Source of the DNA: Alphaproteobacteria bacterium
GTDB lineage: Bacteria; Pseudomonadota; Alphaproteobacteria; Rs-D84
Direction: 5' to 3'
DNA: 64,000 nucleotides
NCBI GenBank assembly: GCA_017502865.1
Contig: JAFVUD010000005.1
Coordinates: 16,007-80,006 of the forward strand
The position numbers were made by a program, and so were the translations under genes. This document shows, piece by piece, positions 9,501 through 58,836 of this stretch (positions are counted from its first letter, which is position 1; every line of letters starts with the position of its first letter). The notes under the pieces are model-generated. The model saw only the letters and a list, made by a program, of their open reading frames with translations. It was not told the DNA's origin and did not search any database.

Positions 9501-12500
9501 GATTGGACCGTTCGGGCTGTACCAGTTGTTACCAACAACGGAACAATCGATACCTGTTTCATAATAGTGCCCCGCAACACAACTGGTTATAACAATGTCG
9601 TTACAGTCGCGGTCATATGCATCGCCACCCCAGAAACATGTCTGTGTACCTGCACCGTTGGCTGCGACATATTCCAGACCGACCTGATAGCAAACACCTT
9701 CATCTGTCGCTGTAACCCCACCGGCCGAGAAGCCCGCTTCTGGACATGAATTCAGCCCACCAACATTGCCTGTATCGGTACCGAAATCACCACCTGGGCA
9801 CCAACTGTTTGGTTCACAGACCGAACATTCGTTTCCTGTGCCTGGGTAATAATAACCTGGATCACAGTGTGTTGTGCCGGCCGCCCACATTGGATATACA
9901 ATGGAATTGTCTGTAACGGCTGTCAATGCTTCTTCTGTGGTCAAGAATTTACCTGTTGAATCGACAATCATAACACCTGAATTGTCTTGTTCTGTATTCA
10001 CGCCCACAAATGTATACCCCGCCAATGCTGGTTTAGTATTCAAACTTGTAATTCCTTGCACTTCACCACCGTCTAAATACCAGCCTGTTGCGTATTTTAA
10101 ATACACAGTCTGTGGGTCGGCTGCCTGATCCGTGCCATCTGCACTTATGGTAATTTCAAAGATATTTGGCTGCCATGCTGCGAACAGTGTCACATTACTG
10201 CCGTCTGCCGACAGATTTTCTGCAACGTTTGAACCGGCTGTATAGCATGTGCCTTTGCCCGCTTTATCTGTGCACCATTTATACAACGGCAGATATCCTG
10301 GTCTGGACAATGCGCGGTTTACGGGCAGGGTACATGACCCACTGTCAAATGTACACTGAACAGATTCCGCAACATCACCTGTACCACCGTTTTTATCCAG
10401 ATAAACTGTATATTTAACTGGATCGCACGATGGTGTGGCACCTGGAACCGGTGTGTATCCCGTTTCGCATGTCAATGTATATTCACATGTTTCATATTCG
10501 CCATTATTCCACATTCCGCGTAAATCATCGTTTGTAGATGTGACTGATGTACTGTGTGCCACATCATCAACTGTCTTGTCGCATGCGACATAACATGTGT
10601 TTATGCTGTCACGTGGGCTAATGGAGCCGTCGCCACCTTCGCAGAATTGACGTTCCAATTCATCGTCGGCACTGTAATAGCCATTTCCCACTGGTGAACA
10701 ACCAACTACGCCTGCACCTGCATAATAGTAACCTGCATCACATGTCAGCGGAACCACACGACAGTTTGTATTGTACACGGCACTGTCGCCACTGCCACTG
10801 GTGTAATAACAATCCCATTGTGCAGTCCCATTCTCGAAATTCTTAGAATCATCTGTTATAACTTTGTGACAATCATTAATGGTTGTACTGCCACTGTTTG
10901 ATGTATAACCGCCCGCTGGACATGTGTCATTACATCCTGTTGTGCCACTGGACACTTCGCCCGCTGCGTCACAGTAATATGGTGCCACGCATGTTGTCCA
11001 TGTGCCGTTGTTCATATATTTACCGGCAACACAGTTTTCGACTGTCTGGCTCCACACTGCGGTCAGTGTTGTATCGCTTAAGAATGTCTTGTTGCTTGGC
11101 AATACACCATCTGCACCAATCACAACATTGCCACTGGTATCTTTATATCCGCCAAACGCATAGTTTGTGCGTGTTGGGACTGTGATTTTTGTCATAGCGG
11201 TTGTCGCAGTCGATGTTGAATAGAATCCAACAGAATACTTTTCATATACCGTCGCTGTGCCACCTGTGCCACCATTTGCATTTAATGTAATTGCATAGAT
11301 GTTTGGTGAACAGATATCTGCCGCATTTGTCGCCGCCGCAACATATGTAAAGCCCTGGTTGCAAGAATAGACAACATCTGGACATGCGTACGCCGATTGT
11401 GAACAGATATTTGGACTGCCATATTCTATAGTACCTGTCTTGCTTTCGTTGGTATATGTAACGGTACCGCGATCGCTTTGTGGTGCCACTGGCGCTGTAC
11501 ACTGAACTGTGCATGATTTTGTACACATTGTGTTTGCACTGCCGGTGGTACAGATATCATATGTACCTGTCCAGCCGTCGCCCAATGTTGAACATTGGGT
11601 TTGGCAATCTGTACATGTACCATATTTTGGGTATTCATCTGCAGCACAATAACAGGTACCTGCCGATGTCGAATTACATGTGCTCCAAATCGCATACAGT
11701 GTCAAATCACCTGTATGTGTTCCTGGATAAATCGCAGTGATTACATCATGTGCATTGCCCTGTGTCAAAGACCATCCTTCGAAATTATGCCCAGGATATG
11801 TTACATTTGGCAACTGGATTGTCCCCGAATTTATGTTATAACTGGTAGTCGGTGTCCCACTGATTGTACCACCATTGGTTTCGTATGTAATTGTCCAGTC
11901 TGATTCCAGCGCATACTGTGCCGTAAATGTGACGTCTTTTGTGTATGTCCATGTGATATATTGATATGCAGGATATGTGGCCGTACCCGATGACCAACCC
12001 GCGAATTTATACCCTACATTTGGTGTACACACCGATGCCGCAGGCAATCTGTAATCGGTGCCATACTGAACCGTTGCACCTGCTGGACTGCCGGTACCGT
12101 TTGCACCGCAATCATAACTGACAGAATATGTATTTACCGTCCATGATGCCCAGAATTCGAAATCACCGATTTCTGTTGCTGTAATGGTAATGGCAGGTGT
12201 GCATTCTGCCGAACCAGATGCTGGGTTTGATGTACACCACCCAGCAAATGTATAACCGGTCTTGGTTGGCGTTATGTCAACATCTGTTCTTGTGCCATAT
12301 GTATGTGTTGTTGGCAATGCTTCTGTCACAGAACCACCATCCAGATTCCATGTGATGTTATAAACCTCGGCTGAACATGATGGTGTTGGTGTGTTGGACC
12401 CGGCCAGGCTTGTGTATCCTGGCAAACATGATGTGGTGTACACACATGAACCACTGCTGGCATTTAATGAACATGTGGCCCCAGTCCCCGGATTACATGC

Positions 12501-14282: not shown

Positions 14283-14361
14283 ATCTTCCTCTCTTTTGTA
14301 TAAAATGGTAGTAAAATCACTGCCACATACGCAAGCGAAAAAATAGGACATTTTTTAATAA

Positions 14362-17270: not shown

Positions 17271-17806
17271 TTTTTGTTTTCTTCGGCATAACTGGGACGC
17301 AGATACATTGGCACAACTGGTTCTAAATTCCCCGATGCAATTTTTTGTTCCGCAATCTGGGTACCTAATTTCAAATCAAATGGTCTGTGCCCAACTGTGC
17401 GTGACCATTCCATCTGTTTTGTTTCGATTTCTTCGATTTCCATTGTGCATGGTTCCAATCCATTTGCCCCAACAAAGAAGTCCCCTCGACCAGACTCAAT
17501 CGCAACAAACGCATCTGGTGTGGCGGCCAAATATAAATCAAATGCACTGATACCAACCACTGGGATATTCAATCCCATTGCCAATCCTTTGGCATATGCA
17601 ATCCCCAAACGAATTCCTGTAAAACTGCCCGGTCCAATAACAACACCAATGGCACTTAAATCATTCCACTTTGTGCCACATTCATCCATAAACTTTTCGC
17701 ATTCTGTGGCCAACGCAACCGATTGCTTTTCAACCGAAACAGATTTGTATTTGTTGCCCAATACAAATTCTAAATCTTTGCCAGATGTGTTTATGATTAA
17801 AATCAT
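17264..17806 (-). CDS. tsaB: tRNA t6A biosynthesis protein TsaB (short form)
   Basis: MILIINTSG...GPGSFTGIRLGIAYAKG motif. At 180 aa it is shorter than usual. Confidence 0.75.
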   Translation of the reverse strand: MILIINTSGKDLEFVLGNKYKSVSVEKQSVALATECEKFMDECGTKWNDLSAIGVVIGPGSFTGIRLGIAYAKGLAMGLNIPVVGISAFDLYLAATPDAFVAIESGRGDFFVGANGLEPCTMEIEEIETKQMEWSRTVGHRPFDLKLGTQIAEQKIASGNLEPVVPMYLRPSYAEENKKC

Positions 17807-18186
17807 TTTTGTTTTTCCTTGAATTGATTCAGCATATCAAACATGTAATGTGCGATTGTGCCTGCATGCCTGTGTTCACGTTTTGTTTCCTTGTCATTGA
17901 CCAGCATTTTATAGTGGTGCGAAATCATCATCGCTGGCACCCCGGGACAGTGCACCTTTAATGCAACAATATCATACCGCCCAGATTTTCCAATAACATA
18001 ATCATTTCGCAATGGCTTGCCCGGCACAGGTTCACTTTCTGTGCGAATTTGAAATTCGTGTGTCTGGGCATATTCTTCGATTTCTTTGAACAAATCAATC
18101 TGTTCCCAACCGTCGCCAATAATCGCCGCACGCACCGGCACGCCATTCAAAACAATGTCTGCAATATCTGGACGTTTTTTAGCCAT
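17803..18186 (-). CDS. Hypothetical protein (127 aa) translationally coupled to the lon-like gene
   Basis: Its ATG shares one nt with the upstream TAA (TAATG at 18188..18184), and there is a 4-nt overlap with tsaB. No Lon protease motifs are present. Confidence 0.5.
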   Translation of the reverse strand: MAKKRPDIADIVLNGVPVRAAIIGDGWEQIDLFKEIEEYAQTHEFQIRTESEPVPGKPLRNDYVIGKSGRYDIVALKVHCPGVPAMMISHHYKMLVNDKETKREHRHAGTIAHYMFDMLNQFKEKQK

Positions 18187-19943
18187 TATATACGTACCCC
18201 AAATCCAATCTTCTTGGCAAATCCCGCAGATTTACGCAACGCCAACAATTCGTCAATCTTTTCCGGTGTAAATTCAGTACGCACATCTTCGGCATTGTTT
18301 TCCAATAACGCACGACGCAGAATTGCTGTGATTTCACGTTGCAGTTCACGCACCCCTTGTTCCGAAGTGTAATTTTGAACAATATGGCGAATTGCATCGT
18401 CATCAATTACAATGTTATTGATATCCCAACCGGTATCATGTGCCGCACGTGCAATCAAGTGTTCACGTGCAATCCGCACTTTTTCATCCATGGAATATCC
18501 TGGAATTTCGATAATTTCCATACGGTCTTTCAATGCGTTTGATAAATTCAAACTGTTTGCAGTCGCAATAAACAACACATTCGACAGGTCAAAGTCCACT
18601 TCCAAATAATGGTCACGGAAAGTCTTGTTCTGTTCTGGGTCCAGAATTTCCAACAACGCAGATTCTGGGTCGCCACGCCAATCACGCCCCATCTTGTCAA
18701 TTTCGTCCAACACGATAACCGGGTTGTTAGATTTGCTGCGTTTTAATGCGTCCATAATACGCCCTGTTTGGGCACCAATATATGTTTTACGATGCCCACG
18801 GAAATGTGCTTCGTCTGAAATGCCACCCAATGAAATACGCTGATATTTACGTCCCAACGCATTCGCAATAGATTTGCCCAGCGATGTTTTACCAACACCT
18901 GGTGCCCCTACAAAGCACAAAATGCTACCCTGGTTAGACTTGGTCTTTTTCATCACTGCGATATGTTCCAAAATGCGTTCTTTGACCCCTTGCATGCCCG
19001 AATGTTCGCTGTCCAGAACATCACGTGCCGTCTGCAAGTCAATCTGCATCTTGTCGGCTTTGTCCCATGGCATGGCCAGCAATTCGTCCAAATACGTCTT
19101 TAACAAGCCACCTTCGTTTGACATTGGCGACATAGAACGCATACGTTTCCATTCGCTTAACGCTTTTTCTTTGGCATCACGTGGCATGTGTGATTTTTCA
19201 ATTTTCTTTTTCAGGTTTGCTGTATCTGCCTCTGGGTCTTCTTCGCCCATTTCTTTTTGAATCGCCCGCATTTTTTCTTGCAGTATAGCCTCACGCCGAC
19301 CGTTTTCCATTTGTTGCTGAATACGGCGATTAATGGCTTCTTCAATCTTGGCTGTTTCCACCAACAGATTTACCTGTTCCAACAAAATAACTAATTTTTC
19401 ATTCCATGATTTTGCCGCCAGTATTTTCAACGCCGCATCTGTTTCAATTTCTGCGTTTTGTACAACACAGTCAATAAATGCCGGCAATGGATAACTTTGA
19501 ATAACACTGCGCAGTTTATCCATTTTGAACTTGCGACTTAAAGACAGAAATTGCATTTTTTCTGCAATCTTGTCACGCAGAACCGTTGTTTGTTCTGCAT
19601 GCATGTCGTCTTGTAATTCGATTGGGGTTGCATTGCCAACGAAAATACCATCTTCGACCAGAATGTCGTCCAATTTTACCGCATCTGTCGTACGAATAAT
19701 CGCATGCAGCGAACCGTCTGGCATACGCAGAACCTGGGCAATATCACCAATTGTCCCAATATCATAAATATCTTTGACCGATGTTGGATAATTCCAACTG
19801 CGTTGTGCCACCAGTACCAGTTTTTGACCGATTTTTGCGGCCACTTCGATACACGCAATAGATGTTTTATTGTCAATATACACCGGCACAGTCAGTCCCG
19901 GATGTACAACAAAATCACGAAATGGTAAAATATATTGTTTCAT
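18186..19943 (-). CDS. LonA-like protein: LON N-domain plus AAA+ module, with no S16 protease domain
   Basis: N-terminal LON domain (ILPFRDFVVHPGLTVPVYI), Walker A GAPGVGKTSLGKS, Walker B VIVLDEIDKM, and sensor/alpha subdomain GVRELQREI. The ORF stops about where the protease domain normally begins, and no DGPSAG is found. Confidence 0.85.
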   Translation of the reverse strand: MKQYILPFRDFVVHPGLTVPVYIDNKTSIACIEVAAKIGQKLVLVAQRSWNYPTSVKDIYDIGTIGDIAQVLRMPDGSLHAIIRTTDAVKLDDILVEDGIFVGNATPIELQDDMHAEQTTVLRDKIAEKMQFLSLSRKFKMDKLRSVIQSYPLPAFIDCVVQNAEIETDAALKILAAKSWNEKLVILLEQVNLLVETAKIEEAINRRIQQQMENGRREAILQEKMRAIQKEMGEEDPEADTANLKKKIEKSHMPRDAKEKALSEWKRMRSMSPMSNEGGLLKTYLDELLAMPWDKADKMQIDLQTARDVLDSEHSGMQGVKERILEHIAVMKKTKSNQGSILCFVGAPGVGKTSLGKSIANALGRKYQRISLGGISDEAHFRGHRKTYIGAQTGRIMDALKRSKSNNPVIVLDEIDKMGRDWRGDPESALLEILDPEQNKTFRDHYLEVDFDLSNVLFIATANSLNLSNALKDRMEIIEIPGYSMDEKVRIAREHLIARAAHDTGWDINNIVIDDDAIRHIVQNYTSEQGVRELQREITAILRRALLENNAEDVRTEFTPEKIDELLALRKSAGFAKKIGFGVRI

Positions 19944-20018
19944 AGCAAGTCTAAATATAATACTTTTTAATAACTTTTCAAGGACAATGACACAACCAAA
20001 CTGTGTGAATTAATTCAT

Positions 20019-29970: not shown

Positions 29971-30029
29971 GTTCTTTTCTCTCCAGTTGTCGTCCAATTA
30001 TACAAATATCTGCTCAACCTGTCAACCGC

Positions 30030-33474: not shown

Positions 33475-33503
33475 TTGAACATAAATGTGAATTCTGGTAT
33501 AAT
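33475..33503 (+). promoter_or_regulatory. Consensus sigma70 promoter (TTGAAC-17-TATAAT) 9 nt upstream of the amiC ATG
   Basis: TTGAAC at 33475..80, TATAAT at 33498..503, and the ATG at 33513. There is no SD in between. Confidence 0.65.
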
Positions 33504-33512
33504 TTTCACATT

Positions 33513-34709
33513 ATGAAAATATCACGTCGTGGCTTTCTAAAAGTATCTGGGATTGGGATTTTGGCGGTTTTGTCGGCCCCCCGTGTCGCGTTTGCTGCCC
33601 GTAATTCCTTGCGGTCTTTGCGAACTGGTGTTCAGCCTGGTAATAAAACCCGTCTGGTAATTGAAACGTCTGCCCGTCCAACATATTCATTGTCGTATCC
33701 GGCCAATCAATTGGTCGTGTCCTTGTCGAATACCGCTGCCAATACGGGCATAACTGCGAATTTAGCATCCAGTGGTCTGGTAAAATCATTGGCCCAGGCC
33801 CAAAATGGCGACACACTTCAGGTTATTGCAAATTTGAAATCTGGTATTGCCCCAATTCAAAAATCGGGCATAATGATTTTAGAACCAAACGGCGATAATG
33901 ATTATCGTCTGGTATTGGATTTTGTTGCGGGTTCTGGTGCGGCGGCTGCTTCATCTGCAACTGCGACCACAGCCACGGCAAAAACAGAAACTAAACAGGC
34001 CACCCAACCGGCAAAACCGGCCACGCCTGCGAAAAAATATATTATCGTTGTTGATGCCGGCCACGGTGGCAAAGATCCCGGCTGCATTGGCAAGGGCGGA
34101 ACCCGTGAAAAAGACGTTGTGCTGTCTGTCGCCAAAAAATTAAAAACAAAACTGGATGCCAATGGTTTCAAAACCTATTTAACACGCAGTGGGGACACGT
34201 ACCTGAAATTGGCCCAACGTGCCGAAATCGCCGAACAGAAAAAAGCAGACCTGTTCATATCCTTGCACGCCAACGCCAACCCCAGCCGTAAAATGAAGGG
34301 CTTTTCTATCTATACCTTGTCGGAAAAGGCATCTGACGAAGAAGCAAAAAAACTGGCCGAGGCTGAAAACGCCGCCGACAAAATCGGGGTCGAAGGATTC
34401 ACCGAATTCGAAGAAAATATCCGTATTGCATTGTCGTCACTTCAACAGCATGCCGTTGCGGAAATGAGTGAAGAATACGCCAACGGTTGTGCCAAATCGT
34501 TCAAGAAATTATCTATTGAACAGCAACCCGGTCCCGATGTTCGCCATGCACCGTTTGCGGTTTTGCGTTCAACTGTGCCGGGTGCGTTGTTGGAATTGGG
34601 GCACCTGTCCAACGCCAGCGAAGAAAAATTGCTGAAATCATCCAGTCACCAGGATAAATTAGTCAACGCAATTGTAAAATCCATAAAAAATTATAACTTT
34701 GATGTCTAA
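33513..34709 (+). CDS. amiC: N-acetylmuramoyl-L-alanine amidase (AmiC-like) with Tat signal and AMIN domain
   Basis: MKISRRGFLKVSGIGILAV is a twin-arginine signal. Ala/Thr/Lys-rich linker. Amidase_3 motifs VVDAGHGGKDPG and SLHANA. Confidence 0.9.
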   Translation: MKISRRGFLKVSGIGILAVLSAPRVAFAARNSLRSLRTGVQPGNKTRLVIETSARPTYSLSYPANQLVVSLSNTAANTGITANLASSGLVKSLAQAQNGDTLQVIANLKSGIAPIQKSGIMILEPNGDNDYRLVLDFVAGSGAAAASSATATTATAKTETKQATQPAKPATPAKKYIIVVDAGHGGKDPGCIGKGGTREKDVVLSVAKKLKTKLDANGFKTYLTRSGDTYLKLAQRAEIAEQKKADLFISLHANANPSRKMKGFSIYTLSEKASDEEAKKLAEAENAADKIGVEGFTEFEENIRIALSSLQQHAVAEMSEEYANGCAKSFKKLSIEQQPGPDVRHAPFAVLRSTVPGALLELGHLSNASEEKLLKSSSHQDKLVNAIVKSIKNYNFDV

Positions 34710-36563: not shown

Positions 36564-38309
36564 ATGTTATTCAGCAAAAAAGCCGGCATAAAAAACCGTA
36601 ATCGTGAACGCTATGAACGTGTTCGTCGCCTGATGTGGTTAAAATGCACATCCTGTGACAAGTTGGTTTACTACAAAGATTATCGTGATAATCTGTATAT
36701 CTGCCCACGTTGTGGCCGTGCGTTCATCATGTCGCCAAAACAACGTTTTAATCTGTTGTTTGATGATACAAATTGGGAACGTTTGACACCACCAACGGTT
36801 TCGGACGACCCACTGGAATTTTCAGACCGTGTTTCATACAAAGAACGCCTGGACGAAGCACGCACAGAAACCGGATATTATGATGCCGTCACAACCGCCG
36901 ATGGCAAAATAGGGGGCATCCCATCAACCGTCTGTGTGTTAAACGGCGATTTTATGATGGGGTCTATGGGACGTGCCGCCGGCGATGGCATTATTGCCGC
37001 AATGGAACATGCAATTGAAACACGTCGTCCACTGATTATGGTCGTGGCCAGTGGCGGTGCCCGTATGCAGGAAAATATTCTTTCCTTGATGCAGATGGCC
37101 CGCACAACCGCTGCTGTAAATAAAATGCATGCGAATGGTATTCCATACATTGTACTGTTGACCGATCCAACATACGGTGGTGTTACGGCATCGTTTGCAA
37201 TGCTGGGCGATATTCACATCGCAGAATCTGGTGCCCGCATTGGTTTTGCCGGCCGTCGTGTTATTGAACAGAATATTCGTGAAAAATTGCCATCTAATTT
37301 CCAGACGGCTGAATATCTGTACGAACACGGTATGGTTGACATGGTCGTTGAACGCAAGAATCTGCACGACACATTGGTCAAGATTCTGGACGTTTTAACC
37401 AAACAACCACGTGAACCGAAAAAGATAAACGTCGCAACCCCATTGATGGATTCGCACAAGAAAATGCGTGGTCTGGGTGAAAACGATGCATATGATAAGG
37501 TTTTGTTGGCACGCCACGAAAATCGTCCACACTTTTTGGATTATATCAACGGGATTGTAGACGAATGGACGTACTTGGCCGGTGACAGACTATATGCCGA
37601 AGATGCCGCCATGGGATCTGGCATTGGTTATTGGCGTGGTATTCCATCGGTTATCATCGGCCAGGAACAGGGTCGTACAATCGAAACCCGCCAAAAACAT
37701 CGCTTTGGTATGGCGAATCCAGACGGCTATCGCAAGGCCCAGCGCATGATGCGATTGGCAGAAAAATTCAATCTGCCACTGATTTCATTGTTTGACACCG
37801 CCGGTGCGTTCGCCGGCCGTGAAGGCGAAGAACGTGGCCAGTCCCAGGCCGTCGCCGCATCTATGTCGGTTGGTCTGTCAATCAAAACACCATACGTCGC
37901 TGTTAACGTAGGTCAGGGCGGTTCTGGCGGTGCCATTGCAATTGGTACAGCCGACCGTGTGTTGATGATGGAAAATGCAATTTATTCTGTTATCGCCCCT
38001 GAATCCTGTGCCAGCATCTTGTGGAAGGATAACAAGTACAAGGCCACAGCCGCCGCCGCCATGAAATTGACGGCCCGTGATATGGCGAACCTGAACGTCG
38101 TTGACGAAGTTATTCCAGAACCGGCCAAAGGTGCCCACACCGATTGGCAAACGACAATGGAATTGTTGTCAACAGCGGTTGCGGAACATATTACGCAGCT
38201 AATGGAAATTCCTGTGGCTGAATTGCCGTCACGTCGTGCCGATAAATTTATGGCAATGACCCGTGATGTCGAAATTTATCAGCCAGAACACATTGGCGAA
38301 GAACACTAA
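36564..38309 (+). CDS. accD/accA: Acetyl-CoA carboxylase carboxyltransferase, fused beta-alpha (AccD-AccA) polypeptide
   Basis: N-terminal half: Zn ribbon CTSCDKLVYY...ICPRCG and AccD core GGARMQE. C-terminal half: AccA motifs GMANPDGYRKAQRMMRLAEKFNLPLISLFDTAGAFAG and GQGGSGGAIAIG. It is a single 581-aa ORF. Confidence 0.9.
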   Translation: MLFSKKAGIKNRNRERYERVRRLMWLKCTSCDKLVYYKDYRDNLYICPRCGRAFIMSPKQRFNLLFDDTNWERLTPPTVSDDPLEFSDRVSYKERLDEARTETGYYDAVTTADGKIGGIPSTVCVLNGDFMMGSMGRAAGDGIIAAMEHAIETRRPLIMVVASGGARMQENILSLMQMARTTAAVNKMHANGIPYIVLLTDPTYGGVTASFAMLGDIHIAESGARIGFAGRRVIEQNIREKLPSNFQTAEYLYEHGMVDMVVERKNLHDTLVKILDVLTKQPREPKKINVATPLMDSHKKMRGLGENDAYDKVLLARHENRPHFLDYINGIVDEWTYLAGDRLYAEDAAMGSGIGYWRGIPSVIIGQEQGRTIETRQKHRFGMANPDGYRKAQRMMRLAEKFNLPLISLFDTAGAFAGREGEERGQSQAVAASMSVGLSIKTPYVAVNVGQGGSGGAIAIGTADRVLMMENAIYSVIAPESCASILWKDNKYKATAAAAMKLTARDMANLNVVDEVIPEPAKGAHTDWQTTMELLSTAVAEHITQLMEIPVAELPSRRADKFMAMTRDVEIYQPEHIGEEH

Positions 38310-39234: not shown

Positions 39235-39322
39235 TGGCGGAGCGTATAGGACTCGAACCTATGGACCAAAAATTTCGGTCACAGATTAGCAATCTGCTGC
39301 ATTACCACTCTGCCAACGCTCC
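39235..39322 (-). tRNA. tRNA-Ser (anticodon GCT), CCA encoded
   Basis: Acceptor GGAGCGT/ACGCTCC, anticodon loop TTGCTAA, long variable arm, T-arm TAGGTTCGAGTCCTA. Confidence 0.95.
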
Positions 39323-39389
39323 GTGCAGGGGGTATTATATAGAAACCTAAACACAAATGCAAGCATGAAAATCTAAAAAACAAACGTAA

Positions 39390-39419
39390 TTGACAATTTA
39401 AGTGTGTGTATGTTATAAT
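39390..39419 (+). promoter_or_regulatory. Sigma70-like promoter (TTGACA-18-TATAAT) of the cysS leader
   Basis: TTGACA at 39390..95 and TATAAT at 39414..19. Confidence 0.6.
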
Positions 39420-39429
39420 TTTGTGTGTA

Positions 39430-39468
39430 ATGACAATTCGTTTTATAAATTTTTACTGTTGTCGCTAA
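39430..39468 (+). promoter_or_regulatory. 12-codon leaderless short ORF MTIRFINFYCCR with tandem Cys codons
   Basis: ATG ACA ATT CGT TTT ATA AAT TTT TAC TGT TGT CGC TAA. The ATG lies 10 nt after the -10 box and there is no SD. Confidence 0.4.
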
Positions 39469-39481
39469 AATTGCAGATTTT

Positions 39482-39507
39482 GCAAACTGATTTTGTTTGC
39501 TTTTTTT
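39482..39507 (+). terminator. Intrinsic terminator-like hairpin inside the cysS leader
   Basis: GCAAAC-TGATTTT-GTTTGC followed by TTTTTTT, 55 nt upstream of the cysS ATG. A competing hairpin TTGCA/TGCAA (39471..39485) overlaps its 5' arm. Confidence 0.55.
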
Positions 39508-39562
39508 ATATACAATTACTAACATCTCAACCAAGAACTAAAACCGAAAAAGGACACATATT

Positions 39563-40987
39563 ATGACGATTAAATTGTACAATACATTGACCCGTAAACT
39601 GGAAGAATTCAAACCATTGGTGCCTGGCCATGTTGGTTTTTATTCATGTGGTCCAACGGTTTATCACTATACACATCTGGGGAATTTGCGTACATTTTTG
39701 CATAACGATTTCTTAAAGCGTATGTTCTTGGCCAATGGATACGACGTTCGTCATATTATGAATATCACAGACGTCGGCCACCTGACCAATGACGAAGATG
39801 ATTCTGGCGAAGACAAAATGGAAAAAGGTGCCGCCCGTGATAATAAATCTGTATGGGATATTGCCCGTTTTTATAAAGATGAATTCATGCGTGACTTTAA
39901 CGATTTAAATATGATTGCACCAACGGTCATGCCCCACGCCACAGACTATATTGCCGAACAAATCGAACTGGTCCAGAAATTACAGGATTTGGGCTATACA
40001 TATGAAATCCCAAATGATGGCATTTATTATGATACATCTAAATTTGCGGGTTATGGTGCATTAACCGGTGGTTCGCTGTCTGGTAATCGTGCCGGTGCCC
40101 GTGTTGGTTTTAATGATGCCAAACGCAACCCAACCGACTTTGCGTTATGGAAATTTTCACCCACAGACGTTAAACGTCAAATGGAATGGGACAGCCCATG
40201 GGGTATTGGTTTCCCTGGCTGGCATGCAGAATGCAGTGCAATGAGCATGAAATTACTGGGTAATCACTTTGATATCCACACCGGCGGCGAAGACCTGTCC
40301 CGTGTACATCACGCAAATGAAATCGCACAAAGCGAACCTATTACCGGTGCGCCATGGGTTAATACATGGTTGCATTACAGTTTCTTGTTGGATAAATCCG
40401 GCGAAAAAATGGCCAAGTCCAAGGGCGAATTCCTGGGGCTGGAATCTGTGCGTAAACGTGGCTATGACCCAATGGTTTATCGCTATTTTGTTGCGCTGGG
40501 GCACTATCAGTCGCAATTGGCGTTCTCGTGGGAAACAATGGACGCATCGGCCAACGGCTATGCGAACCTGGTCCGCCGTGTTGCAGATTTGATTGTCGTA
40601 AACGATGGTACGGTTGATTCTGTGGCCTATGATGCGTGGCATGAAAAAATGCTGGCTGCGATGTCTGACAACCTGAAAACAGCCGCTGTTTTGGTCCATG
40701 TCCAAGATTTTATTAAGTCAAACGAGATTAATGGTGCAACCAAATTGGCACTGGTTCGTTTTGCAGATGACCTGTTGGGATTGCAATTTATCGATCGTGC
40801 CCAGAAATTGGTTGATTTAGAACGTGAATCTGCACCGGCTGAAATCGTTGCATTGGCGGAATCTCGTGCCACTGCCAAGGCAAATCGTGATTGGGCGACC
40901 GCCGATGCACTGCGTGCCGAAATTGATGCGGCCGGCTGGACGGTTTTGGACGGCAAAGACGGTTATAAAATCGTCAAGAAAGCATAA
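39563..40987 (+). CDS. cysS: Cysteinyl-tRNA synthetase
   Basis: MTIKLYNTLTRKLEEF, HIGH-like HLGN and KMSKS-like KMAKS motifs. 474 aa. Confidence 0.95.
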   Translation: MTIKLYNTLTRKLEEFKPLVPGHVGFYSCGPTVYHYTHLGNLRTFLHNDFLKRMFLANGYDVRHIMNITDVGHLTNDEDDSGEDKMEKGAARDNKSVWDIARFYKDEFMRDFNDLNMIAPTVMPHATDYIAEQIELVQKLQDLGYTYEIPNDGIYYDTSKFAGYGALTGGSLSGNRAGARVGFNDAKRNPTDFALWKFSPTDVKRQMEWDSPWGIGFPGWHAECSAMSMKLLGNHFDIHTGGEDLSRVHHANEIAQSEPITGAPWVNTWLHYSFLLDKSGEKMAKSKGEFLGLESVRKRGYDPMVYRYFVALGHYQSQLAFSWETMDASANGYANLVRRVADLIVVNDGTVDSVAYDAWHEKMLAAMSDNLKTAAVLVHVQDFIKSNEINGATKLALVRFADDLLGLQFIDRAQKLVDLERESAPAEIVALAESRATAKANRDWATADALRAEIDAAGWTVLDGKDGYKIVKKA

Positions 40988-51028: not shown

Positions 51029-51070
51029 AAATCCTTGAATCCTGTGGGGAAAAACGACTATAATCCCCAT

Positions 51071-52723
51071 ATGCTAGTTGGATTGAATATTACAAACATT
51101 GTATTAATAGAACGACTGAATCTGGAATTCGGGCGTGGGTTAAATATCCTGACCGGTGAAACGGGGGCGGGTAAAAGTATTCTGCTGGACGCACTGTCAT
51201 TGGCACTGGGGGCACGATCTGATGCGGGCCTGGTTCGTCATGGTTGTGACATGGCATCTGTTATTGCAGAATTTGATGATTGTTCACCCGTGCTGGCAGA
51301 TATTCTGGACGAAAATGGCATAGAACATGATTGCGGTGTAATATTGCGTCGTACTTTGTCGGTTGATGGCAAAAGTCGTGCATGGATAAATGATACACCT
51401 GTGTCAATTAAAACACTGAAACAGGTTGGTGATACCCTGGTTGAAATTCATGGCCAGTTTGCAAATCACACATTGTTAAATCAATCTACCCATCGTTCTA
51501 CATTGGATGCGTTTGCAGCGAATAATATTGACGGGTATTCCAATTTACTGTCATCTGTGCGTTCTGCATACAATGAATATCATACGGCCCAAAATCGTTT
51601 GACTGAATTACAGGAATTATTAGATCGCAGCATTGCCGAACGTGAATTCTTGGAACATAATGTGGCCGAATTGCGTGCGTTGAATCCCCAACCCGGCGAA
51701 GAAGACGAATTGTCCACACGTCGCAGTGCAATGATGAACGCAGAAAAGAATGCTGCAATCTTGACCGATGCGCTGGAAGTGTTATCGAACCGTGGCAACT
51801 CGCTGGATGGGCAAATATTTAATGCCGCCCATGTTTTACAGCGTATTAAAACCGACCCAAATCCATACAGCGAACAAATTGATAAACTGTACCAGGCGGC
51901 TGAAATTGTGTCGTCTGTAATTGGCGAACTGGAACCCGAAAGCACAGATATCGATGATATGGATTCCATCGAAGAACGTCTGTTTGCAATCCGTGCCGCG
52001 GCCCGCAAGCATCGTGTTGCGGCCGATGAATTGCCGACAAAGTTGGCCGAAATGACGGACCAGTTAAACGCAATCGACAATTCGGATGCTGAATTAAAGA
52101 AACTGCACACGGTTGTTGCAAATGCCCGTGCAACATTTAATAAATTTGCATCTGATTTAACATCGGCCCGTGCCGCCGCCGCAAATTCATTACGTGAAAA
52201 GATTTTGGCCGAATTGCCAGAATTAAAATTGGGTTCTGCAGACTTTATGGTTGAATGTGTTGCCGGTACCCCATCTGCCCACGGTATGGACGAAATTACA
52301 TTTATGATTAAAACAAATCCGGGATCACCATTTGCACCGCTGCATCGTGCAGCGTCTGGGGGTGAATTGGCTCGCTTAATGTTGGCGTTGCGTGTGGTGT
52401 TGGCTGGAACCGAAAATGCACACACATTCGTCTTTGACGAAGTTGACACAGGCATCAGTGGTGCCACCGCATCAGCAGTTGGTGCACGCCTGGGTCGTTT
52501 GGCAAAATCTGGCCAGGCCCTGGTTATTACCCATTCTGCCCAGGTTGCAGGCTATGCCGACCGTCATTTCAAAATTGCAAAATCTGTCACAGACGACAAA
52601 ACCACAACCAGTGTAACGGAAATAGGGCCCGACGAACGTGTTAATGAAATCGCACGCATAATCAGTGGTGCCGAAATAACACCAGAATCCATTACAATGG
52701 CAAAAACACTTATCAAAGGATAG
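51071..52723 (+). CDS. recN: DNA repair protein RecN
   Basis: MLVGLNITNIVLIERLNLEF..GETGAGKSI and C-terminal SGGELARLMLAL, FDEVDTGISG. The ATG at 51071 is preferred over the TTG at 51035. Confidence 0.95.
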   Translation: MLVGLNITNIVLIERLNLEFGRGLNILTGETGAGKSILLDALSLALGARSDAGLVRHGCDMASVIAEFDDCSPVLADILDENGIEHDCGVILRRTLSVDGKSRAWINDTPVSIKTLKQVGDTLVEIHGQFANHTLLNQSTHRSTLDAFAANNIDGYSNLLSSVRSAYNEYHTAQNRLTELQELLDRSIAEREFLEHNVAELRALNPQPGEEDELSTRRSAMMNAEKNAAILTDALEVLSNRGNSLDGQIFNAAHVLQRIKTDPNPYSEQIDKLYQAAEIVSSVIGELEPESTDIDDMDSIEERLFAIRAAARKHRVAADELPTKLAEMTDQLNAIDNSDAELKKLHTVVANARATFNKFASDLTSARAAAANSLREKILAELPELKLGSADFMVECVAGTPSAHGMDEITFMIKTNPGSPFAPLHRAASGGELARLMLALRVVLAGTENAHTFVFDEVDTGISGATASAVGARLGRLAKSGQALVITHSAQVAGYADRHFKIAKSVTDDKTTTSVTEIGPDERVNEIARIISGAEITPESITMAKTLIKG

Positions 52724-57871: not shown

Positions 57872-57899
57872 TTGACAAAAACACAATATGTATTATAAT
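57872..57899 (+). promoter_or_regulatory. Consensus promoter (TTGACA-16-TATAAT) 7 nt upstream of the AbiEii-like ATG (leaderless)
   Basis: TTGACA at 57872..77, TATAAT at 57894..99, and the ATG at 57907. There is no SD. Confidence 0.65.
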
Positions 57900-57906
57900 A
57901 TAAAGT

Positions 57907-58836
57907 ATGGTAAAGATAAGAAATGAAGTTTCTCGGGCGTTTCAACGCACTAATAATCCAAAGATGGCCGAACGTGACTATTTGGAATGTGTTGTGCTGG
58001 ACAAATTGTTCCAAGACGATTATATAAAATCCAGCATGGTATTCGCCGGCGGCGGCACATTGACCAAGGCATACAGTATCAGCGACAGAATAGGCCAAGA
58101 TATCGATTTGGCCTGTGCCGATTTTCAGGACATTCCGGACAGTCGTTCTAAAAAACAACTGGCCAACTTTAAACGCAATTTCAAAGAATTTGTTTTTGAT
58201 GATATTCGTCCACGCTTTGAAACAATCCTGGGCCAGGGTGCAGGTTTCAAGATTATGACCGACCGTGACTGGAACAGTCTGCGTAATGAACATCAGTTTA
58301 TGTCATCGCCAACACTGCATTTGATGCACCCGTCGGCATTTACAACAGACTTTCTGCACATTTGCGTTGAAATTATCCCACGTAAATACAACCCGAACAT
58401 TACCAGTGTGCAAACGTTGGTACCATATTCATTGGGCGGTTCTTCGTTTGGTGAAATACCAACTGTGGCATACGAACAGACCTTTTGGGACAAGGTTTTT
58501 GCCCTGCATTCCAATGCGTTGGCCCGTGTTCCACACTTTGACGAAGGTTTTTCGCGTCATTACTATGATGTTGCAACATTGTCGCCATTTGTCGATTTGT
58601 CTGGTTCGGCCCATATGCTGCGTGATATATCCGCACACCAGCAAAAATACACAACCAAAGATTTGGGGATAATTCAGTCGCCATCATCTGTTCAATTATT
58701 GCCAGATGATTCCACATTGTGTAAATTGGCCGACGACTACTATGCAATGTCTGGTGCGTTTTCTAAAATGCCAGAAACATGGACACGGGTTGTTCAAATG
58801 TTAAACGAATTAAACCAAAGATTTAAGACTTTATAG
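57907..58836 (+). CDS. AbiEii/DUF1814-family nucleotidyltransferase (type IV TA toxin-like)
   Basis: ERDYLECVVLDKLF...VFAGGGTLTKAYSISDRIGQDIDLA matches the AbiEii N-terminal GG(T/S)xL...(S/G)xDIDL NTase signature. 309 aa. Confidence 0.75.
   Translation: MVKIRNEVSRAFQRTNNPKMAERDYLECVVLDKLFQDDYIKSSMVFAGGGTLTKAYSISDRIGQDIDLACADFQDIPDSRSKKQLANFKRNFKEFVFDDIRPRFETILGQGAGFKIMTDRDWNSLRNEHQFMSSPTLHLMHPSAFTTDFLHICVEIIPRKYNPNITSVQTLVPYSLGGSSFGEIPTVAYEQTFWDKVFALHSNALARVPHFDEGFSRHYYDVATLSPFVDLSGSAHMLRDISAHQQKYTTKDLGIIQSPSSVQLLPDDSTLCKLADDYYAMSGAFSKMPETWTRVVQMLNELNQRFKTL

What the first reader, a model, noticed from the sequence alone, without database searches (positions are those of the whole stretch)
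39390..39562. cysS leader: promoter, leaderless 12-codon ORF with tandem Cys codons, then a terminator hairpin
A promoter TTGACA-18-TATAAT (39390-39419) lies between tRNA-Ser(GCT) and cysS. An ATG follows 10 nt later. This is the same promoter-to-ATG geometry as three other apparently leaderless genes in this window. The ATG opens ATG ACA ATT CGT TTT ATA AAT TTT TAC TGT TGT CGC TAA, encoding MTIRFINFYCCR (39430-39468). An intrinsic terminator-like hairpin GCAAAC-N7-GTTTGC plus T7 sits at 39482-39507, before the cysS SD and ATG (39563). A competing hairpin TTGCA/TGCAA (39471-39485) overlaps the terminator's 5' arm. The start codon region (39431-37) can also pair with the Cys-codon region (39458-64). 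Two adjacent Cys codons in a tiny ORF directly upstream of the cysteinyl-tRNA synthetase gene is what a ribosome-mediated Cys-sensing attenuator would look like. From memory, leaderless poly-Cys short ORFs acting as cysteine-responsive attenuators have been reported in mycobacteria. I am not aware of this arrangement for alphaproteobacterial cysS. Three caveats apply. The terminator stem is short and AT-rich. I could not derive a clean stall-equals-readthrough logic from the pairings. The unit could instead be an independent ~80-nt sRNA.
Basis: partly seen in the sequence, partly recalled or inferred. Interest (0 to 1): 0.6.

Follow-up and report, generated by a model that had tools for sequence, protein, structure and literature searches.

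The report
Cysteine-sensing leader ORF before cysS

Summary
The organism is a Candidatus Enterousia-like gut alphaproteobacterium.

**What the relatives show:**
- The tiny ORF is real and under selection. A search by CysS protein found it in 24 of 28 clade species. A DNA-motif search found 84 bounded copies. All 81 that are not cut by a locus end lie 103-125 nt upstream of cysS.
- In codons 5-11 (F-I-N-F-Y-C-C), all 10 inferred substitutions are third-position and synonymous.
- A hairpin (GCAAAC/GTTTGC) follows the stop codon by 10-15 nt in 73 of 80 species. Every change in its 5' arm keeps RNA pairing.
- The same leader precedes two cysS genes that are only 33% identical.

- A T-rich tail after the hairpin is present in only 35 of 80 species.
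- A competing antiterminator hairpin is predicted in about half.
The hairpin's invariant 3' arm is its -35 box (TTGCNN-17-TAnnAT).
- No usable RNA data exist.

**Best reading (confidence about 0.6):** a leaderless leader peptide that senses Cys-tRNA and gates read-through from a strong upstream promoter, on top of a basal proximal promoter.

**Novelty:** this is a new member of a known kind. Analogous cysS leaders are described in Deinococcus deserti and Rhodobacterales, and poly-Cys leaderless ORFs in mycobacteria.

The parts
39235..39322 (-). tRNA-Ser(GCT), the divergent upstream neighbour. Its own promoter reads TTGCAT-17-TATAAT on the minus strand at about 39336-39364.
   Evidence: ARAGORN and Rfam. 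The promoter was read from the sequence. The upstream neighbour differs among relatives.
39390..39395 (+). Promoter P1, -35 hexamer TTGACA.
   Evidence: TTGACT or TTGACA is found at the same place in 60 of 80 relatives.
39411..39419 (+). Promoter P1, extended -10 (TGtTATAAT).
   Evidence: A TGn-extended -10 is present in 64 of 80 relatives.
39430..39468 (+). Leaderless 12-codon leader ORF encoding MTIRFINFYCCR, plus stop. There is no Shine-Dalgarno sequence and no room for one.
   Evidence: Conserved in 24 of 28 clade loci found by CysS and in 84 motif hits. All 10 substitutions in codons 5-11 are third-position and synonymous.
39457..39462 (+). Tandem Cys codons TGT TGT (codons 10-11), the presumed sensing codons.
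   Evidence: Invariant in the 19 core sequences. Divergent relatives carry CC, CCC or CCCCC, and L023 has C-Y-C. Codon 12 alternates between Cys and Arg seven times on the tree.
39469..39481 (+). 13-nt spacer between the stop codon and the hairpin. It contains TTGCA (39471-75), which can pair with TGCAA (39481-85) as a candidate antiterminator.
   Evidence: Spacer length is 10-15 nt in 73 of 80 relatives. Alternative pairing is -3.6 kcal/mol here and is predicted in 49 of 80 relatives. The summed energy is -134.4 against -41.6 +/- 8.5 for shuffled spacers, but column covariation is not significant.
39482..39500 (+). Conserved RNA hairpin GCAAAC-N7-GTTTGC (attenuator or terminator stem).
   Evidence: Present in 80 of 81 leaders. 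It is the only helix RNAalifold predicts. No shuffle out of 500 reaches the observed covariation. The 3' arm is invariant in 77 of 78. All 16 variant 5' arms keep pairing through G.U, U.G or a compensating change.
39501..39507 (+). T7 tract after the hairpin, giving an intrinsic-terminator-like tail in this genome.
   Evidence: Only 35 of 80 relatives have at least 5 T in the first 8 nt. The consensus is GC-A-TTT-(T/C).
39497..39502 (+). Proximal promoter P2, -35 hexamer TTGCTT, embedded in the 3' arm of the hairpin.
   Evidence: TTTGC is invariant in 80 of 80, and a -10 box sits at a fixed offset from it. The same promoter is present in the four clade loci that lack the short ORF.
39520..39525 (+). 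Proximal promoter P2, -10 hexamer TAACAT, after a 17-nt spacer. The predicted start is about 39529-39535.
   Evidence: Position frequencies are T .93, A .96, n, n, A .84, T .94 at offsets 24-29 from TTTGC. TANNNT sits at exactly that offset in 73 of 80, and the flanks are not conserved.
39550..39554 (+). Shine-Dalgarno sequence AAGGA of cysS.
   Evidence: An AAAGGA-like sequence is seen in all relatives.
39563..40987 (+). cysS, cysteine--tRNA ligase (474 aa).
   Evidence: TIGR00435 scores 389 bits against a cut-off of 340.

Best explanation
The unit is a leader-peptide sensor of charged tRNA-Cys that controls cysS. The steps below are marked as shown or inferred.

1. P1, a strong extended -10 promoter, starts a transcript at or within a few bases of an AUG. 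Ribosomes therefore translate the 12-codon ORF (M-T-I-x-F-I-N-F-Y-C-C-C/R) without a Shine-Dalgarno sequence. Shown by comparison: the ORF is translated and selected at the amino-acid level.
2. When Cys-tRNA(Cys) is plentiful, the ribosome runs to the stop codon. There its footprint (about 10 nt past the stop) covers the 10-15 nt spacer but not the hairpin. The GCAAAC/GTTTGC hairpin with its short U-tract folds, and most P1 transcripts end or pause there. Inferred.
3. When Cys-tRNA(Cys) is scarce, the ribosome stalls on codons 10-11, which is 6-9 nt further back. The spacer is left free to pair with the hairpin's 5' arm. The hairpin is delayed, and RNA polymerase reads through into cysS. Inferred.
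4. A second, weaker promoter (P2) has its -35 box in the hairpin's 3' arm. It gives cysS a basal level independent of the sensor. Shown by conservation; its activity is inferred.

These bacteria have genomes under 1 Mb and lack amino-acid biosynthesis pathways. Adjusting the synthetase to the supply of charged tRNA-Cys is therefore a plausible remaining response to cysteine shortage.
For: - **Linkage to cysS.** 24 of 28 clade loci found through CysS carry a Cys-containing short ORF 108-136 nt before cysS. Among 52 loci from other phyla none is comparable, and only 4 of 80 further control loci have any Cys-Cys short ORF at all. All 81 complete copies found by DNA motif are followed by cysS. The upstream neighbours vary.
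- **Same leader, two synthetases.** Five species carry the same leader in front of a different cysS gene, 33% identical to the window's and scoring 490-504 bits against TIGR00435.
- **Translation.** On the CysS tree, codons 5-11 show 10 substitutions, all third-position and synonymous. Arg4 uses CGT, CGC, AGA and AGG; Ile6 uses ATA, ATC and ATT; the stop codon is TAA, TAG or TGA.
- **Leaderless geometry.** The gap from the -10 box to the start codon is 6-7 nt in 45 of 80 relatives, and no Shine-Dalgarno sequence is possible. Bona fide genes in the window (recN, lon, an amidase) share this geometry.
- **Hairpin.** Present in 80 of 81 leaders, with a spacer of 10-15 nt in 73 of 80. No shuffle out of 500 reaches the observed covariation. 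All 5'-arm changes are G.U-compatible on the plus-strand RNA, and the distance between the two arms varies from 5 to 7 nt. Both points argue for RNA pairing rather than a DNA operator.
- **Decay after loss.** In the sORF-less relatives L008 and L012, which still carry a remnant of the inverted repeat, the 5' arm has decayed while the 3' arm (the -35 box) persists.
- **Antiterminator.** The summed pairing energy is -134.4 against -41.6 +/- 8.5 for shuffled spacers. TCGC in the spacer tends to accompany GCGAAC in the arm.
- **Precedents.** A leaderless 10-aa leader peptide with two Cys lies before cysS in D. deserti, with a mapped transcription start (PMC4007540). The Rhodobacterales cysS uORF has tandem Cys codons and a terminator (PMC8632094). 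Two consecutive Cys codons are enough for a cysteine response in mycobacteria (10.1101/834739).
Against: - There is no transcript evidence. Metatranscriptome contigs are undirected and may include DNA, and the raw RNA runs held no reads.
- The hairpin is weak (mean -6.2 kcal/mol). Only 35 of 80 species have a T-rich tail, and some have AAAAAAATC or AATAAATC instead.
- 31 of 80 species have no predicted antiterminator. The column-based covariation test for it is not above shuffles.
- The invariant 3' arm is explained by its role as the -35 box of P2, so part of the hairpin's conservation is not about RNA.
- The leader has been lost at least twice within the clade, so it is dispensable.
- The strict conservation of F-I-N-F-Y is not required by a simple hungry-codon model.
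Confidence: 0.6

Rival explanations
1. The sensor is the same (a translated Cys-codon leader ORF), but the output is not regulated intrinsic termination. One possibility is that the hairpin is a pause or processing signal. Another is that a ribosome stalled near the 5' end stabilises the read-through mRNA. A third is that polymerases pausing or terminating at the hairpin sit on P2 and occlude it. The conserved FINFY peptide might act inside the ribosome tunnel to hold the stalled complex.
For: The T-tail is missing in 45 of 80 species and the antiterminator in 31 of 80. The hairpin overlaps the -35 box of P2. Amino-acid-level conservation extends well beyond the Cys codons. The mycobacterial poly-Cys leaders work without a terminator (10.1101/834739).
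Against: There is no pairing with the cysS ribosome-binding site. RNAalifold finds only the one hairpin, and the full leader is not unusually structured. The three positions after the stem are at least 71% T although they lie in a promoter spacer, which suggests selection for a short U-tract. None of these outputs has any direct evidence.
Confidence: 0.2
2. P1, the short ORF and the hairpin form an independent small gene whose 12-aa Cys-rich peptide acts in trans. The hairpin is simply its terminator, packed against the cysS promoter in a compact genome. cysS itself is transcribed only from P2.
For: The peptide sequence is identical between species whose CysS proteins are only 62-67% identical. 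The unit has its own strong promoter and a hairpin. cysS has its own promoter. cysS does without the unit in four clade species.
Against: All 81 complete copies are adjacent to cysS in the same orientation, although the upstream neighbours vary. The adjacency survives replacement of cysS by a 33%-identical xenolog. The invariant residues include exactly the amino acid that the downstream enzyme charges. The spacing from stop codon to hairpin is held at 10-15 nt, matching a ribosome footprint. The weak hairpin is a poor terminator for an independent gene when compared with clear terminators nearby.
Confidence: 0.12
3. The unit is a non-coding small RNA of about 80 nt, or the inverted repeat is a DNA operator for a repressor that overlaps the -35 box of P2. 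In either case the short ORF is incidental.
For: It has its own promoter and a hairpin. The inverted repeat overlaps a promoter.
Against: The substitution pattern has a three-base periodicity and is purely synonymous. The start and stop codons are retained with synonymous stops. Rfam gives no match, even at E<=10. The 5'-arm variants give G.U pairs only on the plus-strand RNA and would break DNA symmetry. The distance between half-sites varies from 5 to 7 nt (13 nt in one case).
Confidence: 0.05

Closest known systems
Leaderless cysS leader peptide of Deinococcus deserti (de Groot et al. 2014, PMC4007540, Fig. 6)
   Same: Both have a transcript that begins at the AUG of a roughly 10-12-codon ORF containing two Cys. 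Both lie directly upstream of cysS, which has its own Shine-Dalgarno sequence. Both were proposed to be transcription attenuators, and both occur in organisms where leaderless mRNAs are common.
   Different: The phyla are unrelated, and no sequence relationship was tested. The D. deserti case has a mapped transcription start; this one has none. This family has a strongly conserved peptide (FINFYCC) and an internal promoter within the hairpin.
uORFC-8-2 motif upstream of cysS in Rhodobacterales (Brewer et al. 2021, PMC8632094)
   Same: Both are found in Alphaproteobacteria. Both are uORFs exclusively upstream of cysS, with two tandem Cys codons followed by a stem and a U-run. Both are interpreted as ribosome-mediated attenuation.
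   Different: In that motif the Cys codons sit at positions 14-15 inside a first stem, and a U-run is present in all cases. Here the Cys codons are at positions 10-11, next to the stop codon. Only one conserved stem is present, the U-run is inconsistent, the translation geometry is leaderless, and the sequence is AT-rich. Rfam 15 gave no match at this locus.
Polycysteine leaderless short ORFs of mycobacteria (Canestrari et al. 2020, 10.1101/834739)
   Same: Both are leaderless short ORFs with at least two consecutive Cys codons placed first on the transcript, acting as ribosome-based sensors of tRNA-Cys charging.
   Different: Those control cysteine-metabolism operons. The one dissected in detail (Ms5788A) acts on translation through a duplex that hides the downstream ribosome-binding site. 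Here the target is cysS, no pairing to its ribosome-binding site exists, and the hairpin lies about 50-60 nt upstream of it.
Classical leader-peptide attenuators (trpL, hisL, pheL; pheM before pheST in E. coli)
   Same: All place cognate codons in a short ORF followed by a hairpin. The logic is that stalling gives read-through. pheM-pheST is an aminoacyl-tRNA synthetase operon controlled in this way (established knowledge).
   Different: Those have Shine-Dalgarno-led ORFs, strong GC-rich terminators with long U-tracts, and well-defined 1:2, 2:3 and 3:4 alternative structures. Here the ORF is leaderless, the hairpin is weak, and the antiterminator is optional.

Membership tests
Leader-peptide (ribosome-mediated) transcription attenuator | A short upstream ORF enriched in codons for the amino acid handled by the downstream gene. 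| tested here: met
   Tandem Cys codons are invariant in the 19 core sequences, and 2-5 Cys are present in the divergent ones. Only 15 of 689 comparable ORFs in the window contain Cys-Cys.
Leader-peptide (ribosome-mediated) transcription attenuator | The short ORF is translated. | tested here: met
   Tested by comparison only. All 10 substitutions in codons 5-11 are third-position and synonymous, and synonymous Arg, Ile and stop codons are used. No ribosome profiling is available.
Leader-peptide (ribosome-mediated) transcription attenuator | An intrinsic terminator lies between the leader ORF and the structural gene. | tested here: inconclusive
   The hairpin is conserved with covariation. However, the mean free energy is only -6.2 kcal/mol, and a T-rich tail is present in only 35 of 80 species.
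Leader-peptide (ribosome-mediated) transcription attenuator | A mutually exclusive antiterminator structure whose formation depends on ribosome position. | tested here: inconclusive
   Pairing between the spacer and the 5' arm is predicted in 49 of 80 species. The energy is well below that of shuffled spacers, but the column covariation test is not significant. The spacer length of 10-15 nt fits a ribosome footprint.
Leader-peptide (ribosome-mediated) transcription attenuator | Read-through increases when the cognate charged tRNA is limiting. | not testable with these tools
   The organism is uncultured. The RNA runs were undirected contigs or held no reads.
uORFC-8-2 motif (Rhodobacterales cysS uORF) | Located upstream of cysS, with tandem Cys codons in a uORF. 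| tested here: met
uORFC-8-2 motif (Rhodobacterales cysS uORF) | Two prominent stems, the first containing the Cys codons (positions 14-15), with a U-run in all cases. | tested here: not met
   RNAalifold predicts a single stem downstream of the ORF. A stem that includes the Cys codons is not above controls. The Cys codons are at positions 10-11. The U-run is present in only 35 of 80. The unit therefore works like this motif but is not a member.
Mycobacterial polycysteine leaderless sORF attenuators | A leaderless transcript beginning with AUG or GUG, with at least two consecutive Cys codons. | tested here: met
   Met by promoter geometry only. The gap is 6-7 nt in 45 of 80 relatives and 10 nt in the window. 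No transcription start data are available.
Mycobacterial polycysteine leaderless sORF attenuators | An RNA duplex that sequesters the downstream ribosome-binding site and is opened by the stalled ribosome. | tested here: not met
   No conserved pairing to the cysS Shine-Dalgarno sequence was found. A promoter (P2) lies between the hairpin and the Shine-Dalgarno sequence.
T-box riboswitch (cysS/cysES control in Firmicutes) | A match to the T-box leader structure. | tested here: not met
   Rfam gave no hit at the gathering threshold or at E<=10.
Sigma-70 promoter (for P2) | Two hexamers at a fixed 17 +/- 1 nt spacing, with T1, A2 and T6 of the -10 box conserved and the spacer unconserved. | tested here: met
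   TTGC is invariant. T .93, A .96, A .84 and T .94 are found at a fixed offset in 73 of 80 species. The promoter is retained in loci that lack the short ORF. Its activity was not tested.

The most novel reading that the evidence does not exclude
The element may be more than a hungry-codon attenuator in two linked ways.

First, the invariant nascent peptide F-I-N-F-Y-C-C could act inside the exit tunnel as a sequence-specific stalling module. It might stabilise a very short peptidyl-tRNA on a ribosome waiting for Cys-tRNA, or modulate release at the adjacent stop codon.

Second, the hairpin's 3' arm is the -35 box of the proximal cysS promoter. Polymerases that pause or terminate at the attenuator could therefore physically gate P2. 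One 20-nt element would then couple an RNA switch and a DNA promoter.
Probability: 0.15. Interest if true: 0.6.

Novelty: new member of a known kind. Interest (0 to 1): 0.42.

Why it matters
It adds a well-populated family, more than 80 species, to the small set of cysteine-sensing leader ORFs. The comparative support is clean. It also shows that a gut lineage with a genome under 1 Mb and no amino-acid biosynthesis still keeps a dedicated cis-regulator for one synthetase.

Three features are worth a specialist's look:
- The leader peptide is conserved at the amino-acid level far beyond its Cys codons.
- The attenuator hairpin shares its 3' arm with the -35 box of a second promoter.
- The same leader has been kept in front of two cysS genes that are only 33% identical. 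This is unusually direct evidence that a leader is tied to the function of its gene.

For annotation, the 12-codon ORF and the P2 promoter are missed by standard pipelines.

Tried and rejected
- **RNA evidence.** Four metatranscriptome runs held related contigs. In X26 one contig spans 39334-39965, including the untranscribed P1 region. In X25 two contigs break exactly at the hairpin. The contigs are undirected and DNA carry-over is possible, so no start or end could be called. A second search with a rumen relative gave only weak holders, and four raw-read runs held no reads.
- **Rfam.** No family matched at this locus, even at E<=10. The weak rseX and Arrc14 hits are chance.
- **First DNA scans.** A 15-base pattern was too unspecific and returned mostly unrelated taxa. 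A 21-base pattern worked.
- **Antiterminator.** The column-based covariation test was not above shuffles. Only the energy test supports the pairing, and that test does not correct for relatedness.
- **Stem between the start region and the Cys codons.** It is compatible in 93% of cells but not above shuffles, and it scores nearly as well when slid by 3 nt because of the UGU repeats.
- **Sequestration of the cysS ribosome-binding site.** None was found, and the whole leader is not unusually structured (z = -1.4 and +0.55).
- **DNA operator reading of the inverted repeat.** Rejected because of the G.U-only arm variants and the variable spacing.
- **Origin of the second cysS type.** Those loci served only as extra negative controls.
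- **L271.** This is a bounded MVGSFINFYCC ORF in a Clostridia MAG. It is a chance match with no promoter, hairpin or cysS.
Full report
**1. The observation**

- The promoter is TTGACA (39390-95), an 18-nt spacer, then TATAAT (39414-19). A TG two bases upstream makes it an extended -10. The scan scores it 12/12.
- ATG at 39430 opens MTIRFINFYCCR, ending at 39468.
- The hairpin GCAAAC-N7-GTTTGC occupies 39482-39500 and is followed by T7. Its free energy is -5.6 kcal/mol.
- The cysS ATG is at 39563, and the protein passes the TIGR00435 cut-off.
- tRNA-Ser(GCT) lies on the other strand at 39235-39322.

Chance is a poor explanation.
- Perfect-consensus promoters occur 3 times in the window against 0.04 expected.
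- Only 15 of 689 ATG ORFs of 8-20 codons contain Cys-Cys, and only 2 have it at the C-terminal end.
- Leaderless geometry is common here. recN, lon, an AmiC-like amidase and other long ORFs start 6-10 nt after a good -10 box.

**2. The organism**

The closest CysS loci come from metagenome-assembled genomes labelled Candidatus Enterousia or uncultured Alphaproteobacteria from animal and human guts. The window also carries a two-piece alphaproteobacterial tmRNA. Enterousia belongs to the order Rs-D84. Its genomes are under 1 Mb and lack amino-acid biosynthesis pathways (PMC12306168).

**3. The short ORF is conserved, translated and tied to cysS**

Among the 28 clade loci retrieved through the CysS protein, an unbiased sample, 24 carry a short Cys-containing ORF.
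- In 23 of them the ORF contains Cys-Cys and starts 108-136 nt before the cysS ATG. L023 has C-Y-C instead.
- Of those 24, 18 encode M-T-[IV]-x-F-I-N-F-Y-C-C-[CR], as the window does.
- Six more divergent ones encode MMITYPMLFYCCR, MKRFLSFYCCCR, MRLFGFNVYCCR, MKFLVMNFCCCCC, MKKFLSCYCRR and MKNKISFSFVLCCAVAR.
- None of the 52 loci from other phyla in that search has anything comparable. Only 4 of 80 further cysS loci have any Cys-Cys short ORF.

Fitch parsimony on a CysS tree of the 19 core sequences gave a clear coding signature.
- Codons 5-11 show 10 substitutions, all at third positions and all synonymous.
- Codon 4 is free (R, Q, L or P; Arg uses CGT, CGC, AGA and AGG).
- Ile6 uses all three of its codons.
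- The stop codon is TAA or TAG in these 19 sequences (TGA in the divergent L011 and L028).
- Codon 12 flips between Cys and Arg seven times.

This is the signature of a translated ORF under amino-acid-level selection. It excludes a purely non-coding RNA.

A 21-base DNA pattern from the ORF found 121 places in the species-level genome collection.
- 84 are bounded short ORFs of this type.
- 81 have cysS 103-125 nt downstream. The other 3 are cut by the end of the fetched DNA.
- The remaining 37 hits are chance matches in unrelated taxa. 36 are not bounded short ORFs of this kind. One is a bounded ORF in a Clostridia MAG that has no promoter, hairpin or cysS.

The upstream neighbours differ between species: tRNA-Ser in some, other genes in others.

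In five species the same leader precedes a different cysS. That gene is 33% identical to the window's and scores 490-504 bits against TIGR00435. The leader has therefore stayed with the function 'cysS' across a gene replacement.

On the CysS tree the leader is ancestral to the clade and was lost at least twice (L007/L008/L012, and L009).

**4. Promoter P1**

In 80 relatives the -35 box is TTGACT or TTGACA in 60, and the -10 box is TGn-extended in 64. The gap to the start codon is 6-7 nt in 45 and 9-10 nt in 23. There is never room for a Shine-Dalgarno sequence. In the window the gap is 10 nt, so a 2-4 nt leader is possible.

**5. The hairpin is an RNA structure**

- It is present in 80 of 81 leaders.
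- It begins 10-15 nt after the stop codon in 73 of 80.
- It is the only helix RNAalifold predicts.
- On the 24-sequence alignment all five covariation measures exceed every one of 500 shuffles and all slid controls. Three divergent species have entirely different stem sequences at the same position.
- In 78 scorable hairpins the 3' arm is GTTTGC in 77. The 5' arm varies in 16. Every variant (GCGAAC, GCAGAC, GTAAAC, GCAAAT) is a transition that keeps a G.U or U.G pair on the plus-strand RNA, or is compensated.
- The two arms are 5-7 nt apart in 75 of 78, so the spacing varies among species.

These patterns fit RNA pairing and do not fit a symmetric protein operator.

**6. The terminator reading is only half supported**

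- The stem is weak, with a mean of -6.2 kcal/mol.
- At least 5 T in the 8 nt after the stem occur in only 35 of 80 species.
- Several species have AATAAATC or AAAAAAATC instead.
- The consensus after the stem is A-TTT-(T/C), with T at 71-75% at three positions. This gives a short U-tract at best.
- Clear terminators nearby are much stronger, for example the GC-rich one after tRNA-Ser.

**7. The antiterminator is optional**

In the window, TTGCA (39471-75) pairs with TGCAA (39481-85) at -3.6 kcal/mol.
- Across 80 species, pairing between the spacer and the 5' arm is predicted in 49 and reaches -2 kcal/mol or better in 30. None is predicted in 31.
- The summed energy is -134.4, against -41.6 +/- 8.5 for shuffled spacers. 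This test ignores relatedness.
- Spacers with TCGC tend to accompany arms with GCGAAC (4 of 6, against 4 of 22), which is suggestive.
- The column-based test is not above shuffles.

The geometry does give a clean logic, which is an inference. A ribosome with the stop codon in its A site shields about 10 nt beyond it. That covers the spacer but not the hairpin. A ribosome stalled on Cys10 or Cys11 sits 6-9 nt further back and exposes the spacer. The narrow 10-15 nt spacing fits this picture.

**8.

I aligned 80 leaders without gaps on the TTTGC of the 3' arm.
- Offsets 24-29 read T .93, A .96, n, n, A .84, T .94.
- TANNNT sits at exactly that offset in 73 of 80.
- The positions between and beyond are not conserved.

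That is a sigma-70 promoter, TTGCNN-17-TAnnAT. The four clade loci without the short ORF keep it. In L008 it directly follows the terminator of the upstream gene, so it must be that gene's promoter. L008 and L012 still carry a remnant of the inverted repeat, and there the 5' arm has decayed while the -35 box persists.

In the window, P2 consists of TTGCTT (39497-502) and TAACAT (39520-25), with a start predicted near 39529-39535. The divergent tRNA-Ser gene also uses a TTGCAT-type -35 box, so this variant is in use in this organism.

Two things follow. The invariance of the 3' arm is largely a promoter constraint, with the 5' arm evolving to pair with it. And cysS has a basal promoter that does not depend on the leader.

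**9. Other structures**

It is compatible in 93% of cells, but it is not above controls. No pairing to the cysS ribosome-binding site exists, and the whole leader is not unusually structured.

**10. RNA data**

Metatranscriptome contigs cover the region, but they are undirected and include the promoter itself, so DNA carry-over cannot be excluded. The raw-read runs held nothing. The transcription start, the 3' end and any regulation remain untested.

**11. Known relatives**

- A leaderless 10-aa leader peptide with two Cys lies before cysS in Deinococcus deserti, with a mapped start (PMC4007540).
- The uORFC-8-2 motif comprises 145 examples exclusively before cysS in Rhodobacterales, with tandem Cys codons and a terminator (PMC8632094).
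- In mycobacteria, polycysteine leaderless ORFs act as cysteine-responsive translational attenuators (10.1101/834739).

This element works like these but is a separate family. It differs in the position of the Cys codons, in having a single stem, in making no contact with the ribosome-binding site, and in having no Rfam match.

**12. Verdict**

The sensor part is well supported: a translated, leaderless Cys-codon ORF functionally tied to cysS. I put that at about 0.85-0.9.

The output is inferred. Regulated termination of P1 transcripts at the hairpin, on top of a basal P2, has a confidence of about 0.6.

It is a new member of a known kind, with three unusual details:
- the peptide is conserved beyond its Cys codons;
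- the hairpin shares its 3' arm with a promoter's -35 box;
- the same leader precedes two cysS xenologs.

Noticed in passing
L213:2564-3997, L222, L266, L273, L310 (loci fetched): Five clade species carry a second type of cysS (477 aa, 33% identical to the window's, with a higher TIGR00435 score) behind the same leader ORF, hairpin and P2. The synthetase gene was therefore replaced in place while its regulatory region was kept.
   Followed up: partly
window 39563-40987: Outside the clade, the window's CysS is most similar (47-51% identity) to CysS of Elusimicrobia, Ignavibacteria and Desulfobacterales rather than to that of other Alphaproteobacteria. This suggests an old horizontal acquisition.
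   Followed up: no
window 39463-39465 and the same codon in relatives: Codon 12 of the leader switches between Cys (TGT) and Arg (CGN) at least seven times on the tree, and no other residue appears there. Both T and C at its first base can pair with the G of the start codon in the predicted 5' stem. The constraint could therefore lie in the RNA or in the peptide.
   Followed up: partly
L028:2880-3000: A divergent relative has a 17-codon leader, MKNKISFSFVLCCAVAR. A GC-rich hairpin (GCGCC-GTG-GCGCGC) overlaps the end of the ORF, followed by TGATCTTTTAT. This is a different layout of the same idea. The contig is labelled Muribaculaceae but encodes an 84%-identical CysS, so it is probably misbinned.
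   Followed up: no
window 36564-38309: A single 581-aa ORF matches AccD in its N-terminal half and AccA in its C-terminal half. It appears to be a fused acetyl-CoA carboxylase carboxyltransferase.
   Followed up: no
window 18186-19943 (-) and 17803-18186 (-): The lon ORF is only 585 aa and covers model positions 2-567 of 795. The following 127-aa ORF has no family match. The protease domain may be missing, split off or frameshifted.
   Followed up: no
window 57872-57907, 51035-51071, 33475-33513, 19943-19981 (-), 29997-30025 (-): Several long genes start 6-10 nt after a near-consensus or perfect promoter: the 309-aa ORF at 57907, recN, an amidase with a Tat-like signal, and lon. Leaderless mRNAs therefore seem common in this organism. 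A third perfect promoter at 29997-30025 (-) was not examined further.
   Followed up: partly
window 6504-14351 (-): A giant ORF of 2615 aa. It was not characterised.
   Followed up: no
window 39323-39390: The short intergenic region holds two divergent promoters back to back: P1 on the plus strand, and a TTGCAT-17-TATAAT promoter for tRNA-Ser(GCT) on the minus strand. The latter is conserved in relatives that keep this tRNA neighbour.
   Followed up: partly
window 39454-39456 and relatives: Tyr9 of the leader is TAC in most core sequences, although TAC is the minor Tyr codon in this genome (26%). Both Phe codons are always TTT. This may reflect extra nucleotide-level or decoding-speed constraints next to the Cys codons.
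   Followed up: no
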